Positions 3,938-62,661 of a stretch of DNA of 64,000 nucleotides are shown in pieces; the first letter of the stretch is position 1; each line of letters begins with the position of its first letter. The DNA lies in sequence record PP445229.1. One strand, given 5' to 3'. The notes under the pieces are model-generated. The model was not told where the DNA came from and ran no database searches. It saw only the letters and a list, made by a program, of their open reading frames with translations. Origin of the DNA: Escherichia phage EC.W2-6. A program made the position numbers and the translations under genes.

Positions 3938-4471
3938 ATGAGTTTACTAGGAAGTGTTGAACTGCACGATGTAATTGACAATGGCTATCTGGATGCGGAG
4001 CATAAGTATGTTAACGCTGCTAGTGTGGATATCCGTATTGGTGATACTATCCTTGTTGAAGAACAGGCTGATGGCATCGTTGATATTGATGCGAAAGAGA
4101 ATCTTCAGTGGAAGGAAGTAAAGATTCCTGAAGAGGGTTTGGTTATCACTCCGGGTCAGTTCTTCTTGGCTCACTCTATGGAGGAGTTTAATCTTCCAGA
4201 TAACATCTCAAGTCTGTTTGTTCTGCGTTCATCTATGGCTCGTTGTGGTTTGAACCATCTCCACGCTGGGTGGGCAGACGCAGGGTTTAATAGCAGTAAG
4301 CTGACATTTGAATTCCATAACGTAACCAAGCATCATAGCTTACGAGTTCGTGCTGGTATGCGTGTTGGTCAGATGGTTATGTTTGAGCACTCTCATGCAG
4401 GGGAGCACTCCTATGCAGTGAAGGGTCGTTATAATAACTCTGAAGGTGTAGTTGCATCTAAAGGTGTGTAA
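3938..4471 (+). CDS. dcd: dCTP deaminase / dUTPase-family protein
   Basis: Motifs VDIRIGD, RSSMARCGL, GWADAGF and C-terminal KGRYNNSEGVVASK resemble Dcd. Confidence 0.8.
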   Translation: MSLLGSVELHDVIDNGYLDAEHKYVNAASVDIRIGDTILVEEQADGIVDIDAKENLQWKEVKIPEEGLVITPGQFFLAHSMEEFNLPDNISSLFVLRSSMARCGLNHLHAGWADAGFNSSKLTFEFHNVTKHHSLRVRAGMRVGQMVMFEHSHAGEHSYAVKGRYNNSEGVVASKGV

Positions 4472-4669
4472 ATGAAAAAGTGGATTGTTCGTGTACATGA
4501 TAACACGACTGGAGAGTTAGTAGCTGTAGATTTTGTTAAGACTCGAGAGCACGCACGTAGGGTCAAAAATCAATACAAATCTACTTTTAGACTTAATAAG
4601 GTTACACTAGGAAAAGCTATCGTGAATAGTGAAGGTGCTTTTTGTGTTAACAGTAAGGTTTATTATTAA
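4472..4669 (+). CDS. small protein, tandem paralog 1 of 3 (C-terminal KVYY)
   Basis: 65 aa; shares TR..AR..K core and C-terminal KV.YY with the next two ORFs. Confidence 0.45.
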   Translation: MKKWIVRVHDNTTGELVAVDFVKTREHARRVKNQYKSTFRLNKVTLGKAIVNSEGAFCVNSKVYY

Positions 4670-4878
4670 TGAGACCGATCACTATGAGACAATTTTGGTT
4701 AGCAAAGATTAAGTGGGCATCAGGTGGTATGACTATGACTGCACTACTCACTCGTCAACAGGCTCGAGATTTTAAAAAGTCTATGTTCAATGTAGACTTA
4801 ACTAAGAGCATCAGTATTCATAAGGCCAAGGAGTATTCTTCTGGTCGTGTTTATATCAGCGGAAAGGTACATTACTAA
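4669..4878 (+). CDS. small protein, tandem paralog 2 of 3
   Basis: 69 aa; TAATG stop-start overlap; ends GKVHY. Confidence 0.45.
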   Translation: MRPITMRQFWLAKIKWASGGMTMTALLTRQQARDFKKSMFNVDLTKSISIHKAKEYSSGRVYISGKVHY

Positions 4879-5087
4879 TGAAAAAGATGTGGGCTATTCA
4901 TGTTGTTTGGGATCTTGAGCAACACATGAGAAAAGATAACATCAAATTGTTTGACACTCGCAAAGAGGCTCGTATTGCTAAGAAACAGTTGAAGACTCTG
5001 GGCACAATAGTAAAAAGCGCTGACATACATCGCTGGTATGAAGACCCTAACACTGGTTCTTTTATGTCTAAAGTAATTTACTACTGA
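4878..5087 (+). CDS. small protein, tandem paralog 3 of 3
   Basis: 69 aa; TAATG overlap; ends KVIYY. Confidence 0.45.
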   Translation: MKKMWAIHVVWDLEQHMRKDNIKLFDTRKEARIAKKQLKTLGTIVKSADIHRWYEDPNTGSFMSKVIYY

Positions 5088-5111
5088 TTGGTAGTAGATA
5101 TGATAACTCTC

Positions 5112-5122
5112 AAATGTATATA
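5112..5122 (+). promoter_or_regulatory. candidate phage-specific promoter element (AATGTATA motif)
   Basis: AAATGTATATA about 40 nt upstream of ATG 5160. Confidence 0.3.
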
Positions 5123-5159
5123 GAGTACAATAAGAATTTGTATTTTACAGGAGAGAGTT

Positions 5160-5489
5160 ATGTTAGATTTGAGTAAAGTGGCCCCGCCCACTGAAGAGAT
5201 TACAAAATCCAAGGTGATGCAACAGTTTTATCATCGTGATATGCTTGGTCGCTTTATCAAGAATCGTGATGTTGTTGCTTGGTCTATTGGTAATCAGGGA
5301 TATCTGTTGAAGGTTCTTCAGGTTACAGGCTCAACTGCTAAGCGAGTTAAGGTGTATGACCCTGAAATGGGGCGTTCTAAGTCAGTAGACCCACAGAACT
5401 GCATCGTAATTACCCAGCAGGTAATGGATAATATTGCACGTAACGTTGCTAACTCAGTTGAACTTGATGGAGAAAACCCAAATGCATAA
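5160..5489 (+). CDS. hypothetical protein
   Basis: ORF with GGAGAGAG RBS; no recognisable motif. Confidence 0.4.
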   Translation: MLDLSKVAPPTEEITKSKVMQQFYHRDMLGRFIKNRDVVAWSIGNQGYLLKVLQVTGSTAKRVKVYDPEMGRSKSVDPQNCIVITQQVMDNIARNVANSVELDGENPNA

Positions 5490-6045
5490 GAATGTTTTTG
5501 ATTTACCTGAGATTGGTCGTGACAGTTATAGTATGTTAGACCGGTCTGATCTTTCAATCTCTCGCCTTGAAACAATGCAAGGCATGATTAGTGCAAACAG
5601 CCTAGAACACATCCTGAGCTGCTTACAAGCTAACATGGAACTATTGCATATCAAAGCTAAAAACTACCACTGGAACGTCTCTGGTGCAGGATTTCAGGGT
5701 GTCCATGGTATGTTTGATGAGCTGGAAGATTACGCACGACAGGTAGGAGATCGTATTGCTGAACGTATGCGTTACCACTGTGTTAAAGTGGATGCTACAG
5801 CAGCTAATTATCTTTCTCATGCTTGGTTCTCAGAGGGGAATGCTGATCTAGACATGGACGGTATGCTCTCTGATATGTGCATGACCTTGATGTGTATTAT
5901 TGAGAAGATGGATGAGTTTGATGGTGATTTAGCCTCCCACCCTGTCGATCAGAGTATGCTTCAAGAAATTAATGAAGGTCTTGGCAAGTATTGCTACTTC
6001 GTCAAGAGCAACATGTCCCATTCAAGTGGTGACGTGTCTTACTAA
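5482..6045 (+). CDS. Dps/ferritin-like protein
   Basis: KNYHWNVSGAGFQGVHGMFDE...DRIAER parallels the Dps ferroxidase region (HWN..G..F..VHE..D...AER); ATG at 5482 overlaps upstream stop. Confidence 0.55.
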   Translation: MHKNVFDLPEIGRDSYSMLDRSDLSISRLETMQGMISANSLEHILSCLQANMELLHIKAKNYHWNVSGAGFQGVHGMFDELEDYARQVGDRIAERMRYHCVKVDATAANYLSHAWFSEGNADLDMDGMLSDMCMTLMCIIEKMDEFDGDLASHPVDQSMLQEINEGLGKYCYFVKSNMSHSSGDVSY

Positions 6046-6105
6046 AACCTCCGCCCTGTCTCCTAACCCGAGGTGGGGCGAACTTATTTATAAGGATATA
6101 GATAT

Positions 6106-6285
6106 ATGTTATCAGCAATCGTATGGGGTATTTGGGCTATCTTTATTGGTGGTGGTATTTATTGGGCTTCTGGTAAGCTTATTGAAGAAACTCCTGATAA
6201 GAAAGGTGAAATTCAAACAGCATCAACCATCATGGTTATTGTAGCTGTTGTTATCCCGTTCCTACTTCACCTCCTGACTGCATAA
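6106..6285 (+). CDS. small membrane protein (two predicted TM helices)
   Basis: 59-aa ORF with AAGGA RBS, not in the supplied track; preferred over overlapping 5972..6244 frame. Confidence 0.35.
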   Translation: MLSAIVWGIWAIFIGGGIYWASGKLIEETPDKKGEIQTASTIMVIVAVVIPFLLHLLTA

Positions 6286-6293
6286 GGATTTAC

Positions 6294-6569
6294 ATGTCTA
6301 AAGTAATTAAGTTTTATAGCGATCAGTGTGCTCCATGTAAAGCAATGGCTCCTACCTTTGAGAAGGTTGTTAAGGAGTTTGATGTAGAAGTGGAAGAGAT
6401 TAACATCCTTGAAGGTGATGGTCGTGAACAAGCTGTTAAGTATGGTGTACGAAGTATCCCTGCTTTCGTTGTGCCTGACCGTAACAGTGGTGCGCACTAC
6501 AGCCTCTCCGGTATGCAGACTGAAGCAAACCTGAAAGCATTTTTGGACACAGCCCTGAGAAATAAGTAA
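6294..6569 (+). CDS. thioredoxin-like protein
   Basis: Active-site-like CAPCK (Trx WCGPCK) in a 91-aa protein. Confidence 0.7.
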   Translation: MSKVIKFYSDQCAPCKAMAPTFEKVVKEFDVEVEEINILEGDGREQAVKYGVRSIPAFVVPDRNSGAHYSLSGMQTEANLKAFLDTALRNK

Positions 6570-6584
6570 TAAGGATATTCACGG

Positions 6585-7241
6585 ATGAATGAACAACTAC
6601 AAGCAACATTAATCGAAGCTATGGGAAGTGATCGTAGCGTAGTAAACGCAGCTCGAGTTTCCTTTGGCGTAACCCGTGAAGGTGATTTAAATGAACGTGA
6701 TGAACGTCTCATCAACTTTCTCGCAAGAGAGAAGCATGTTACCCCATTCCGACACCCGCAAGTCAGTTTCCGATGCAAAGCACCTATCGCAATTGCGAGA
6801 CAGCTGGGCAAGCATCAGGTTGGATTCTCGTGGAACGAAATGTCCCGGCGGTATAAAGATGGAGCAGTTGAAGTCTTCATCCCTAAAGAGATTTTTGCGA
6901 GACCTTCGGACCTCCATGCAGGTTCAGGGATTCAACTCATCGACGGAGAGCGAGCTGAAGCATTAATGCTGATTAATGATGCATATGAAGCTTCTCTAGC
7001 AGCATATGACAAGTTGATTGAATTTATTGCACCAGAGCAGGCTCGATTTGTTCTTCCTCAGGGGATGATCACTGAGTGGGTGTGGACTGGTTCTTTGTAT
7101 GGCTGGTTTGAGTTGTGCCGTCAGCGACTCTCCTCTCACGCTCAATATGAAGTTCGAGTGTTTGCTAAATCTCTAGATGAAGAGATGGCTAAACTCTACC
7201 CAATCTCGTGGGCAGCTCTGAAGAAAACTTTGGAGAGTTAA
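6585..7241 (+). CDS. thyX: flavin-dependent thymidylate synthase-like (ThyX)
   Basis: AARVSFG N-terminus and ARQLGKH...SWNEMSRRY region resemble the ThyX signature (RHR...S.RY), with H replacing RHR. Confidence 0.6.
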   Translation: MNEQLQATLIEAMGSDRSVVNAARVSFGVTREGDLNERDERLINFLAREKHVTPFRHPQVSFRCKAPIAIARQLGKHQVGFSWNEMSRRYKDGAVEVFIPKEIFARPSDLHAGSGIQLIDGERAEALMLINDAYEASLAAYDKLIEFIAPEQARFVLPQGMITEWVWTGSLYGWFELCRQRLSSHAQYEVRVFAKSLDEEMAKLYPISWAALKKTLES

Positions 7242-7242
7242 A

Positions 7243-7491
7243 ATGGCTAGTAAAAGTATTTGGATTCTGAGTCGTGTTGAAGAGACAGACAGAGGGGAGT
7301 ACACAGAAGTGCTTTGCTCTTTCATTACATACCCCACAAAACAACAGCTTGAAGATGCTGGAGTAGAAATAAATCTTTCTCAATCTCTTTTTGATAAAAA
7401 GGTTTCCAAGTCAACAGCCCCATTCTTTGGTTATTACTACACACTTGATAGTTTGGAGCTACTGATGAATGATTCTTGTTTGGAGAATTAA
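7243..7491 (+). CDS. hypothetical protein
   Basis: ORF abutting thyX stop; no motif. Confidence 0.4.
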   Translation: MASKSIWILSRVEETDRGEYTEVLCSFITYPTKQQLEDAGVEINLSQSLFDKKVSKSTAPFFGYYYTLDSLELLMNDSCLEN

Positions 7492-7625
7492 TGTTGGAAG
7501 AAGATGACGATGTGTTCTGCACCAAGTGTGGGATGACAGTTGATGATGCATATGACCCAAGTGTAGAAATTTGTCCATGTTGCAGAGTATGTGAATATTG
7601 CTGTTCCCACAACTCAGAGGATTAG
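7491..7625 (+). CDS. small Cys-rich (zinc-ribbon-like) protein
   Basis: 44-aa ORF, CTKCG...CPCCRVCEYCC; TAATG overlap with upstream gene. Confidence 0.3.
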   Translation: MLEEDDDVFCTKCGMTVDDAYDPSVEICPCCRVCEYCCSHNSED

Positions 7626-9280: not shown

Positions 9281-9291
9281 TAATGTATACT
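9281..9291 (+). promoter_or_regulatory. candidate phage-specific promoter element (TAATGTATACT)
   Basis: Exact TAATGTATACT 35 nt upstream of ATG 9326, no sigma70 -35. Confidence 0.35.
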
Positions 9292-16155: not shown

Positions 16156-16323
16156 TTATCTCGCAGGTGGCTCCTGCCCTTCGGTACTTGCAAGGGATTC
16201 TGTGAATTGCCCAATATACAAGCCTGCAATAACTTTATCAGCTATACAATATATACATTACTAGTGTGATATATCTACTACCAAAGATACTTATATTATA
16301 TAGTACTCTTATCGGTATAAGCG

Positions 16324-16334
16324 TAATGTATACT
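16324..16334 (+). promoter_or_regulatory. candidate phage-specific promoter element (TAATGTATACT)
   Basis: Exact TAATGTATACT 58 nt upstream of SSB gene. Confidence 0.35.
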
Positions 16335-26464: not shown

Positions 26465-26531
26465 AACGTCTCCTTTTATAAATAAAAATGTCCTACCCCC
26501 TATATACATTATAGAAGGCAGGACTTAGGTC

Positions 26532-43332: not shown

Positions 43333-43341
43333 TATACATTA
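43333..43341 (-). promoter_or_regulatory. candidate phage-specific late promoter element (TAATGTATA, minus strand)
   Basis: Reverse complement reads TAATGTATA, between terminator 43371-43393 and gene start 43299. Confidence 0.35.
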
Positions 43342-62585: not shown

Positions 62586-62661
62586 GCGCTCTTAGCTCAA
62601 TGGATAGAGCAGTAGCCTTCTAAGCTATTGGTTACAGGTTCGAGTCCTGTAGGGCGCACCA
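62586..62661 (+). tRNA. tRNA-Arg (anticodon UCU), CCA encoded
   Basis: Cloverleaf by hand: 7-bp acceptor GCGCTCT/AGGGCGC, D-arm GCTC/GAGC, anticodon stem GTAGC/GCTAT with loop CTTCTAA, T-arm ACAGG-TTCGAGT-CCTGT, then ACCA. Confidence 0.85.

What the first reader, a model, noticed from the sequence alone, without database searches (positions are those of the whole stretch)
5482..6045. Phage-encoded Dps/ferritin-like protein
The product carries the Dps ferroxidase-centre pattern (HWN..G..F..VH..FDE....D.IAER). Dps homologues are unusual in lytic phage genomes. It could protect replicating phage DNA from oxidative damage, sequester iron, or act as a nucleoid-binding takeover factor.
Basis: partly seen in the sequence, partly recalled or inferred. 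Interest (0 to 1): 0.55.

Follow-up and report, generated by a model that had tools for sequence, protein, structure and literature searches.

The report
Kuravirus phage Dps mini-ferritin gene
The ORF is a real iron-oxidising Dps "mini-ferritin" that every phiEco32-like coliphage carries among its DNA-precursor genes; it has been annotated as Dps since 2008 but never tested, so the finding is correct but not new.

Summary
Confirmed, and already known. Window 5482..6045 (+) encodes a 187-aa protein that is 98% identical to phiEco32 gp67, which RefSeq annotates as a "member of the Dps family". The window itself is 100% identical to Kuravirus phage EC.W14-3. Pfam Ferritin scores above its threshold. 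All 53 significant PDB profile hits are Dps proteins. AlphaFold2 gives a four-helix bundle with the short BC helix, and every top Foldseek match is a Dps dodecamer. The five ferroxidase ligands (H63, H75, D79, D90, E94) and W64 are invariant.

The protein is strongly acidic (pI 4.8). Instead of a Lys-rich DNA-binding tail it has a 44-aa acidic N-terminal extension with a clade-specific motif, so the common label "DNA binding protein" is unsupported. The label "integrase", carried by this very phage's record, is wrong.

Observations I did not find in the papers I could search:
- The gene forms a conserved two-gene unit: a phage-sigma promoter, a 109-aa protein of unknown function (gp68-like), Dps, then a terminator hairpin.
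- This unit always sits in the dNTP-synthesis module (dCTP deaminase, thioredoxin, ThyX, and NrdD in relatives) across prolate-headed podophages.

Most likely it acts as a peroxide-consuming iron sink during phage DNA synthesis. That role is inferred, not tested.

The parts
5112..5120 (+). AAATGTATA, a match to the phiEco32 gp36 (phage sigma) middle/late promoter element tAATGTAtA, in the intergenic region upstream of the gp68-like ORF
   Evidence: One mismatch to the consensus. The intergenic region is identical to phiEco32 and the element is conserved in SU7. A perfect TAATGTATA sits at the same place in two metagenomic relatives. A gp36-dependent promoter was mapped experimentally upstream of phiEco32 gene 68, according to PMC8948821. 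The 9-mer by itself is not enriched in the window (22 matches against 19.6 expected), so position and conservation carry the argument.
5160..5489 (+). gp68-like ORF, 109 aa, function unknown (phrog_10984); its stop codon overlaps the Dps start codon
   Evidence: No Pfam hit; phrog_10984 at 1.9e-64. Homologues (31-37% identity, E 5e-14 to 5e-17) lie directly upstream of Dps in Privateer, GAP52, BUCT695 and LAh_8, and 85% identical copies do so in metagenomic relatives. The SU10 orthologue CDS68 was detected by mass spectrometry. The AF2 model has low confidence (pLDDT 62) and shows a small beta-barrel plus a helix; Foldseek found no match at E<=1e-3.
5482..6045 (+). Dps-family mini-ferritin gene (187 aa, 21.2 kDa, pI 4.8), orthologue of phiEco32 gp67
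5482..5613 (+). Codons 1-44: a lineage-specific acidic N-terminal extension (net charge -3) containing the conserved motif S-I-S-R-L-E-x-M (residues 25-32, nt 5554-5577)
   Evidence: R28 is invariant and M32 nearly so. The motif [GS]R[LM][DE]x[ML] occurs in 24 of 174 Dps proteins examined, all of them in the Kuravirus-like clade. The extension is absent from the Dps of 7-11, Privateer, GAP52, BUCT695 and LAh_8, which have short basic or neutral tails instead. AF2 predicts a helix at residues 19-37 with pLDDT about 60. dN is about 5 times that of the core (0.35 against 0.068).
5668..5763 (+). Codons 63-94: the ferroxidase-centre segment H63, W64, H75, D79, D90, E94
   Evidence: Aligns to E. coli Dps H51, W52, H63, D67, D78, E82 (offset 12; 1dps row). 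Invariant in 16 homologues and kept in six distant phage Dps. The spacing pattern is matched by 142 of 174 family proteins.
6052..6080 (+). Terminator-like G+C-rich hairpin (11 pairs) followed by a T-rich tail, 7 nt after the Dps stop codon
   Evidence: RNA fold -18.5 kcal/mol, z -2.3. A hairpin plus U-tract sits at the same position with unrelated stem sequences in two metagenomic relatives (z -4.4 and -3.1) and in SU7 (z -3.65).
3938..4471 (+). Context: dCTP deaminase gene (dNTP module)
   Evidence: Annotated orthologue phi32_72; PF22769 DCD in relatives.
6294..6569 (+). Context: thioredoxin gene
   Evidence: PF00085 at 2.1e-13; orthologue phi32_65.
6585..7241 (+). Context: flavin-dependent thymidylate synthase ThyX gene
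   Evidence: Annotated in phiEco32 and EC.W14-3; PF02511 Thy1 in relatives.

Best explanation
The gene encodes a genuine Dps-type mini-ferritin. Shown here: it has the Dps fold and all five ferroxidase ligands. These ligands form an iron site only across a subunit dimer interface, so the protein must at least dimerise. Inferred from established Dps biochemistry: it assembles into the usual 12-subunit hollow shell, oxidises Fe(II) preferentially with H2O2 at the inter-subunit sites, and stores Fe(III) inside. That would remove both Fenton reagents from the infected cell. Shown here or in the cited papers: it is made in the middle phase of infection. Transcription starts at a phage-sigma (gp36-type) promoter, covers a bicistronic unit with the upstream gp68-like protein, and ends at a hairpin terminator. 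In all prolate-headed (C3) podophage lineages examined, the unit lies inside the dNTP-synthesis and replication module: dCTP deaminase, thioredoxin, ThyX, and in relatives the oxygen-sensitive anaerobic ribonucleotide reductase NrdD. Inferred: its role is to keep free iron and peroxide low while phage DNA and its precursors are made, at a time when exponentially growing E. coli has little Dps of its own. Because the protein is strongly acidic and lacks a Lys-rich tail, direct DNA coating of the E. coli Dps type is unlikely for the Kuravirus version.
For: Family and fold: Pfam Ferritin scores above its cut-off. All 53 PDB profile hits are Dps. The AF2 model (pLDDT 80.6) has helices at 41-65, 72-98, 107-112 (BC), 125-150 and 154-176. 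The Foldseek top 50 are Dps or Dps-like, with target-normalised TM up to 0.90.
Ligands: H63, H75, D79, D90, E94 and W64 are invariant. They align to E. coli Dps H51, H63, D67, D78, E82 and W52 and are kept in distant phage Dps.
Selection: dN/dS against SU7 is about 0.06 overall and about 0.04 in the core. 97 of the 98 Kuravirus-like records hold the gene at 80% identity or more.
Expression: SU10 CDS67 (>=95% identical to the window's protein) gave 6 peptides and 35.8% coverage and is listed among middle gene products.
Transcription unit.
Conserved dNTP-module context, with NrdD adjacent or nearby in relatives.
Not host-derived recently: only 39% identity to E. coli Dps over 41 residues.
Acidic character: pI 4.78, net charge -15, N-terminal extension net -3.
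Against: No biochemical or genetic test of any Kuravirus Dps was found in the searchable literature. Dodecamer formation could not be modelled with these tools. The link to dNTP enzymes is guilt by association. Kuravirus itself lacks NrdD, so the most suggestive neighbour is missing from this window. The Dps of Privateer was found in CsCl-purified virions, which a purely cytoplasmic role does not explain. The conserved N-terminal motif and the conserved gp68-like partner have no place in the canonical Dps mechanism, so part of the biology is unexplained. The NCBIfam Dps equivalog models score far below their cut-offs (34.9 against 114 bits): this is a divergent family member, not an orthologue of cellular Dps.
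Confidence: 0.65

Rival explanations
1. DNA-binding or nucleoid-compacting protein: it coats or condenses phage or host DNA, as the widespread annotation 'DNA binding protein' implies and as the first reader's 'takeover factor' suggests.
For: E. coli Dps and several others bind DNA (established knowledge). Most database records call this protein a DNA-binding protein. Dps from the sister lineages (7-11, Privateer, GAP52, BUCT695) do carry short Lys/Arg-rich N-terminal tails, net +2 to +5. The upstream partner gp68-like is mildly basic (pI 8.8), and its weak fold matches include small beta-barrels, one of which is an ssDNA-binding PWWP domain.
Against: The Kuravirus protein has pI 4.78 and net charge -15. 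Its 44-residue N-terminal extension is net -3 and its C-terminal tail is uncharged. The annotation traces to family membership, not to an assay. Many Dps proteins do not bind DNA (for example Listeria Fri and A. tumefaciens Dps; own knowledge). It is a middle gene in the nucleotide-metabolism module, not an early takeover gene. All ferroxidase ligands are under strict conservation, which pure DNA binding would not need.
Confidence: 0.1
2. Virion-associated Dps: the protein is packaged in, or bound to, the prolate capsid. There it would protect the packaged genome or be delivered with it, in analogy to ferritin-like cargo inside HK97-fold encapsulin shells.
For: The Dps of Privateer was detected by LC-MS/MS in phage purified by a CsCl step gradient plus an equilibrium gradient (PMC7881722). 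SU10 CDS67 was among the best-covered non-structural proteins in a phage preparation. The gene is restricted to, and conserved across, C3 prolate podophage lineages. The clade-specific N-terminal motif could be a docking peptide.
Against: The SU10 preparation was only 'amplified and concentrated'. It also contained DNA polymerase, the sigma factor, PhoH, terminase and scaffold protein, so it reflects lysate carry-over. The later SU10 cryo-EM study lists gp20-24 as internal/ejection proteins; searches of its main text and three held supplementary files found no occurrence of gp67 or Dps. The gene is in the middle class, not with the late structural genes. A 9-nm cage cannot pass through a podophage tail (own knowledge). 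Privateer's Dps lacks the N-terminal motif, so the motif cannot be a general packaging signal.
Confidence: 0.1
3. Iron depot or donor rather than protectant: the cage buffers iron to supply iron-dependent nucleotide enzymes during infection, namely the NrdG [4Fe-4S] activase of NrdD in relatives and the host di-iron NrdB in Kuravirus.
For: Dps lies immediately next to NrdD in GAP52 and BUCT695 (with an NrdD-like remnant at that position in Privateer), near NrdD and NrdG in LAh_8, and within about 2 kb of NrdD in metagenomic Kuravirus-like relatives. Thioredoxin is a constant neighbour.
Against: Kuravirus keeps Dps although it has lost NrdD, or never had it. Dps proteins are classically sinks, not donors (own knowledge). 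Nothing in the sequence distinguishes this reading from the protective one.
Confidence: 0.12
4. Integrase, as annotated for this exact gene in EC.W14-3 (WYM30766.1) and many other Kuravirus records.
For: Only the database label.
Against: Pfam finds nothing but Ferritin. The fold is a four-helix bundle. All structural neighbours are Dps. At 187 aa the protein is too short for a tyrosine or serine recombinase (own knowledge).
Confidence: 0.01

Closest known systems
phiEco32 gp67 (phi32_67, YP_001671812.1) and its orthologues SU10 CDS67 and SU7 gp067
   Same: Orthologous gene: 98% amino-acid identity to phiEco32, the same position between gene 68 and the thioredoxin gene, the same start codon. 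The RefSeq note already reads 'member of the Dps family'. SU10 CDS67 is described as containing a DPS domain and was detected by MS.
   Different: Nothing of substance. In this window's own phage record (EC.W14-3) the gene is mislabelled 'integrase'.
Cellular Dps mini-ferritins with solved structures (B. anthracis Dlp-2 1jig, B. subtilis MrgA 2chp, M. smegmatis Dps2 2z90, S. aureus Dps 2d5k, E. coli Dps 1dps)
   Same: Four-helix bundle with a short BC helix, the inter-subunit ferroxidase ligands H/H/D + D/E, and the adjacent Trp.
   Different: Only 22-27% identity in structural alignments. Scores fall below the NCBIfam equivalog cut-offs. It has a 44-residue acidic N-terminal extension with a clade-specific motif instead of a Lys-rich tail. 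It is much more acidic than E. coli Dps (pI 4.8 against 5.7). It is encoded by a virulent phage, paired with a gp68-like gene and expressed from a phage-sigma promoter.
Dps of the sister C3 podophages (Salmonella 7-11 gp073, Proteus Privateer gp068, Cronobacter GAP52 gp052, Aeromonas BUCT695 and LAh_8)
   Same: 31-45% identical. All ligands are kept, the genes lie in the same nucleotide-metabolism module, and a gp68-like gene sits directly upstream in all but 7-11.
   Different: These are 146-156 aa with short, mostly basic N-terminal tails and no S-x-x-R-L-E-x-M extension. They lie next to the anaerobic RNR gene NrdD, which Kuravirus lacks.
Dps-like genes of other phage groups (Lactobacillus plantarum myophages, 'Gratiaviridae' and 'Flandersviridae' gut phages, large Streptomyces phages, cyanophage S-SRM01)
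   Same: Phage-encoded Dps proposed to buffer iron and reactive oxygen during infection (PMC6669764, PMC8008677). They are detected by tblastn.
   Different: They belong to different sequence clades: the two tblastn searches overlap very little. Hosts and genome contexts differ. None has been tested experimentally either, as far as the searchable literature shows.

Membership tests
Dps family (mini-ferritins; Pfam PF00210 Ferritin-like domain, Dps subgroup) | Significant sequence match to the family profile | tested here: met
   PF00210 scores 31.2 bits against a cut-off of 24.5. A profile of 16 homologues hits 53 PDB sequences, all Dps, with best E 6.3e-15 over core residues 39-171.
Dps family (mini-ferritins; Pfam PF00210 Ferritin-like domain, Dps subgroup) | Four-helix bundle with a short helix in the long BC loop and no fifth C-terminal E helix | tested here: met
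   The AF2 model (pLDDT 80.6) has helices at 41-65, 72-98, 107-112, 125-150 and 154-176. The Foldseek PDB top 50 are all Dps or Dps-like, with target-normalised TM 0.71-0.90.
Dps family (mini-ferritins; Pfam PF00210 Ferritin-like domain, Dps subgroup) | Inter-subunit ferroxidase ligands: two His and one Asp from one subunit, plus Asp and Glu from the two-fold partner (E. coli H51, H63, D67, D78, E82) | tested here: met
   H63, H75, D79, D90 and E94 align with offset 12 to 1dps. They are invariant in 16 homologues and in 6 distant phage Dps.
Dps family (mini-ferritins; Pfam PF00210 Ferritin-like domain, Dps subgroup) | Conserved Trp next to the first His (E. coli W52) | tested here: met
   W64 is invariant.
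Dps family (mini-ferritins; Pfam PF00210 Ferritin-like domain, Dps subgroup) | Assembly into a 12-subunit hollow shell with 23 symmetry | not testable with these tools
   No multimer prediction was available. Indirect support only: the ligand set is split between two subunits, so a functional site requires the Dps dimer.
Dps family (mini-ferritins; Pfam PF00210 Ferritin-like domain, Dps subgroup) | Acidic three-fold 'ferritin-like' pores for iron entry | tested here: inconclusive
   The CD loop and the start of helix D are acidic (D144, E145, D147, D149, D156), and P154, V155, Q157 are invariant. However, D156 is Thr in the sister phage lineages, and no superposition on a solved pore was possible.
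Dps family (mini-ferritins; Pfam PF00210 Ferritin-like domain, Dps subgroup) | Fe(II) oxidation by H2O2 or O2 and formation of an iron core | not testable with these tools
   This needs a biochemical assay. No published assay for this clade was found.
Orthologue (equivalog) of E. coli Dps, haloarchaeal DpsA or cyanobacterial DpsA (NCBIfam NF006975, NF041388, NF052461) | Score above the curated equivalog cut-off | tested here: not met
   34.9 against 114 bits, 32.4 against 170, and 17.8 against 300. The protein is a family member but not an equivalog of any curated cellular Dps.
DNA-binding Dps subgroup (E. coli type) | Flexible Lys/Arg-rich N- or C-terminal tail | tested here: not met
   N-terminal residues 1-44 carry net charge -3, the C-terminal tail net 0, and the whole protein -15. 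This feature is not required for Dps family membership.
Phage integrases (tyrosine or serine recombinases), as annotated in EC.W14-3 and other records | Recombinase catalytic domain | tested here: not met
   No Pfam hit other than Ferritin at E<=1. The fold is a helical bundle.

The most novel reading that the evidence does not exclude
The conserved pair of gp68-like and Dps is a dedicated two-protein device of prolate-headed podophages, not a stand-alone mini-ferritin. The small beta-barrel partner, or the clade-specific N-terminal S-x-x-R-L-E-x-M motif, would tether the Dps cage to a target. Candidate targets are replicating or packaging DNA, or the capsid itself, which would explain the detection in CsCl-purified Privateer virions. 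That would make it a phage counterpart of ferritin-loaded encapsulins.
Probability: 0.1. Interest if true: 0.7.

Novelty: already known. Interest (0 to 1): 0.3.

Why it matters
The identification adds nothing new to biology: phiEco32 gp67 has been labelled a Dps family member since the genome was published. Three practical or follow-up points remain.

1. The gene is labelled 'integrase' in this phage's own GenBank record and in many other Kuravirus records. These phages are being developed for therapy, including EC.W14-3 (PMC11670814). A false integrase flag wrongly suggests a temperate lifestyle.

2. The equally common label 'DNA binding protein' is not supported by the sequence of the Kuravirus version.

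3. A virulent phage lineage keeps an intact ferroxidase cage under strong purifying selection. It is always coupled to one unknown small protein and always lies inside the dNTP-synthesis module. This makes a cheap, testable case for iron and peroxide control as a requirement for phage DNA synthesis, a function no one has yet tested for any phage Dps in the literature I could search.

Tried and rejected
- Longer TTG-started ORF (5434..6045): rejected. The ATG at 5482 has a GGAG Shine-Dalgarno sequence, matches the phiEco32 annotation, and homologues begin with MH(K/N)N.
- Structure of gp68-like: the AF2 model reached only pLDDT 62. Foldseek against PDB gave nothing at E<=1e-3, only weak Tudor/PWWP/SH3-like small-barrel matches at E 0.016-0.09. 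I treat this as inconclusive and assign no function.
- N-terminal extension as an amphipathic docking helix: the hydrophobic moment was 0.135, and 79% of shuffles scored at least as high. Not supported.
- The promoter 9-mer as evidence on its own: it is not enriched in the window (22 matches against 19.6 expected). Only its position, its identity to the experimentally mapped phiEco32 site and its conservation in relatives count.
- Original phiEco32 papers (Savalia 2008, PMC2587145; Pavlova 2012, PMC3275717): not held in the library. The promoter mapping is therefore cited second-hand from PMC8948821, and I could not check whether gp67 was in the phiEco32 virion proteome.
- SU10 cryo-EM paper: searches of its main text and three held supplementary files found no mention of gp67 or Dps.
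- Recent capture from the host: rejected, since identity to E. coli Dps is only 39% over 41 residues.
- dS between the window and SU7 is saturated (about 2 overall, undefined for the N-terminal part). The dN/dS values are therefore rough upper-level indicators only.
Full report
WHAT THE WINDOW IS. The region 4500-7500 is 100% identical to Escherichia phages EC.W14-3 (PP496998) and EC.W8-1. It is 93-98% identical to dozens of Kuravirus (phiEco32-like, Gordonclarkvirinae) coliphages with prolate heads.

THE OBSERVATION. An ATG-initiated ORF occupies exactly 5482..6045 on the + strand and encodes 187 aa, 21.2 kDa. GGAG lies 9 nt upstream of the ATG. The ATG overlaps the stop codon of the preceding ORF (ATGCATAA). 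The only slip is spacing: nine residues, not four, separate FDE from D.IAER.

The protein matches Pfam Ferritin (PF00210) above the gathering threshold, 31.2 against 24.5 bits. It matches phrog_3636 at 1.5e-54 and Dps proteins in PDB by phmmer, the best being M. smegmatis Dps2 at 1.4e-9. A profile built from 16 homologues (alignment A1) hits 53 PDB sequences, all of them Dps family proteins. The best is B. anthracis Dlp-2 at 6.3e-15, covering the whole core.

FOLD AND ACTIVE SITE. AlphaFold2 on that alignment gives mean pLDDT 80.6, and above 85 for most of the core. The helices are at 41-65, 72-98, a short one at 107-112, then 125-150 and 154-176. That is the Dps four-helix bundle with its characteristic BC helix and no fifth ferritin helix. 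An extra, less confident helix lies at 19-37.

The top 50 Foldseek matches in PDB are all Dps or Dps-like, nearly all of them described dodecamers, with target-normalised TM-scores up to 0.90.

The PDB row for E. coli Dps (1dps: query 56-95 against chain 44-83) and a direct BLASTP alignment fix the offset at 12 residues. H63, W64, H75, D79, D90 and E94 therefore correspond to E. coli Dps H51, W52, H63, D67, D78 and E82. From established Dps structural work, those are the inter-subunit ferroxidase ligands and the neighbouring tryptophan. All six are invariant in 16 homologues down to 48% identity. They are also kept in the Dps of phages 7-11, Privateer, GAP52, BUCT695 and LAh_8 at 31-45% identity.

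IS IT MAINTAINED?
- 97 of the 98 Kuravirus-like records matched by DNA carry the protein at 80% identity or more.
- Against the SU7 orthologue (82% amino-acid identity), dN/dS is about 0.06 overall and about 0.04 for the core. dS is saturated, so these are rough values.
- In an exhaustive HMMER scan of 1.84 billion representatives, only 13 proteins reach E<=1e-10 and 658 reach E<=1e-3. The clade is well separated from cellular Dps.
- Identity to E. coli Dps is 39% over 41 residues, so this is not a recent capture from the host.
- NCBIfam equivalog models for cellular Dps score far below their cut-offs.

IS IT ALREADY KNOWN? Yes.
- The phiEco32 RefSeq record annotates the orthologue phi32_67 as 'DNA binding protein; member of the Dps family'.
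- The SU10 paper lists CDS67 as containing a DPS domain and as present in all five C3 phages then sequenced. [quoted passage not shown]
- The Privateer paper reports a Dps family protein in CsCl-purified virions and notes homologues in Kuravirus (PMC7881722).
- Dps-like genes have also been noted in Lactobacillus myophages and in gut 'Gratiaviridae' and 'Flandersviridae'.
- A tblastn search with E. coli Dps finds a further 131 or so phage records, mostly large Streptomyces phages. Together with the 136 records found with the window protein, about 0.5% of 50,697 phage records encode a Dps. That is rare overall but fixed within several lineages.
- I found no experimental study of any Kuravirus Dps.

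WHAT THE SEQUENCE ADDS.

(a) Charge. The protein has pI 4.78 and net charge -15. Where E. coli Dps has a Lys-rich DNA-binding tail, the Kuravirus protein has a 44-residue extension of net charge -3. The sister lineages instead have short N-terminal tails, basic in four of the five (for example MLGARPKRPAP in 7-11 and ..ARPGSKRKAG in BUCT695). The common label 'DNA binding protein' thus rests on family membership alone and is not supported for this version.

(b) N-terminal extension. It evolves about five times faster than the core (dN 0.35 against 0.068). Even so, it keeps a short motif, S/T-x-[GS]-R-[LM]-[DE]-x-M, with R28 invariant. The motif is found in 24 of 174 Dps proteins examined, all within the Kuravirus-like clade. 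It is not an amphipathic helix. Its role is unexplained.

(c) Mislabel. The gene is labelled 'integrase' in EC.W14-3 (WYM30766.1) and many other records. Pfam, the fold and the structural neighbours exclude that.

A CONSERVED TWO-GENE UNIT. The upstream ORF 5160..5489 encodes a 109-aa protein (phrog_10984, no Pfam hit).

Its homologues lie directly upstream of the Dps gene, abutting or overlapping it, at 31-37% identity and E 5e-14 to 5e-17. This holds in Privateer, GAP52, BUCT695 and LAh_8. Only in 7-11 is it four genes away. Metagenomic Kuravirus-like relatives whose Dps is 53-56% identical keep the same 8-nt overlap.

Upstream of the pair lies AAATGTATA (5112-5120), in an intergenic region identical to that of phiEco32. 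In phiEco32 a promoter dependent on the phage sigma factor gp36 was mapped in front of gene 68 (consensus tAATGTAtA; PMC8948821). The metagenomic relatives have a perfect TAATGTATA at the same place.

Seven nucleotides after the Dps stop codon there is an 11-bp G+C-rich hairpin with a T-rich tail at 6052..6080. A hairpin plus U-tract occupies the same position, with unrelated stem sequences, in the relatives (z -3.1 to -4.4).

The SU10 orthologues of both proteins were detected by MS.

The partner's structure could not be resolved. The AF2 model has pLDDT 62 and shows a small beta-barrel, and Foldseek found no match at E<=1e-3.

GENOMIC CONTEXT. In every lineage examined, the pair sits in the nucleotide-metabolism and replication module: primase/helicase, polymerase exonuclease subunit, dCTP deaminase, thioredoxin and ThyX.

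Outside Kuravirus proper, the oxygen-sensitive anaerobic ribonucleotide reductase NrdD is the immediate neighbour in GAP52 and BUCT695, with a remnant in Privateer. It lies within a few genes in LAh_8, and about 2 kb away in the metagenomic relatives. This window has no NrdD-sized ORF in the module.

MECHANISM.
- Shown: Dps fold, intact split ferroxidase site, strong purifying selection, middle-phase expression as a bicistronic unit, and constant association with dNTP-synthesis genes.
- Inferred from established Dps biochemistry: assembly into a dodecameric cage, oxidation of Fe(II) with H2O2, and storage of Fe(III). This would suppress Fenton chemistry while phage DNA is replicated.
- Further inference from my own knowledge: flavin-dependent ThyX leaks H2O2 in air, glycyl-radical RNRs and their Fe-S activases are oxidant-sensitive, and exponentially growing E. 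coli contains little Dps. Each of these would give a virulent phage a reason to bring its own.

I put 0.65 on this explanation as a whole. Family membership alone is about 0.95.

Rivals:
- DNA coating (0.10), disfavoured by charge.
- Virion association (0.10), suggested by the Privateer data. Against it, the SU10 preparation also contained polymerase, sigma factor and scaffold protein, and searches of the SU10 cryo-EM paper found no mention of gp67.
- An iron-donor role for RNR components (0.12).
- Integrase (refuted).

VERDICT. The finding is real and correctly interpreted, but it is already annotated and published as a Dps family member, so novelty is low. The residual interest lies in four things: the untested function, the conserved unknown partner, the clade-specific N-terminal motif, and the unexplained virion detection.

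Noticed in passing
window 5160..5489 (+): A 109-aa ORF of unknown function (phrog_10984, no Pfam hit) whose stop codon overlaps the Dps start. Homologues sit directly upstream of Dps in four other C3-podophage lineages and in metagenomic relatives. The Kuravirus-type copies are about 20 residues longer at the N-terminus, in the same lineage where Dps gained its N-terminal extension.
   Followed up: partly
window 5482..6045; PP496998.1 protein WYM30766.1: This Dps gene is annotated 'integrase' in the window's own phage record and in many other Kuravirus GenBank/RefSeq records. The label is a propagated error, and it matters for phage-therapy safety screens.
   Followed up: yes
window 4472..4669, 4669..4878, 4878..5087 (+): Three tandem, head-to-tail small ORFs (65-69 aa) all match the same family of unknown function, phrog_4939 (E 1e-27 to 1e-29). 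They are only 22-24% identical to each other and share a T-R-x-x-A-R motif and a terminal Y. This looks like an old triplication just upstream of the gp68-like/Dps unit.
   Followed up: partly
L007 3457-5589, L008 3432-5525, L006 1-1128 and 2451-2942, L009 6161-7522, L011 6312-7564: Relatives of this phage carry the anaerobic ribonucleotide reductase NrdD (plus NrdG or GrcA-like genes) next to or near the Dps gene. Privateer keeps only a 98-aa fragment annotated as ribonucleotide reductase. The window (Kuravirus proper) has none in this module.
   Followed up: partly
window 62586..62661 (+): ARAGORN finds a tRNA-Arg(TCT) gene, whereas the paper describing EC.W14-3 states that the phages have no tRNA genes (PMC11670814).
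   Followed up: no
window 6106..6285 (+): A 59-aa hydrophobic ORF (phrog_9296, unknown function; annotated 'membrane protein' in some records) lies between the Dps terminator hairpin and the thioredoxin gene.
   Followed up: no
window 9281-9289, 16252-16260 (-), 16324-16332, 26503-26511 (-), 43333-43341 (-): Five perfect copies of TAATGTATA, the phiEco32 gp36 promoter consensus. They are probably the other middle and late promoters. The pair at 16252 (- strand) and 16324 (+ strand) are about 70 bp apart on opposite strands, so they may be divergent promoters.
   Followed up: no
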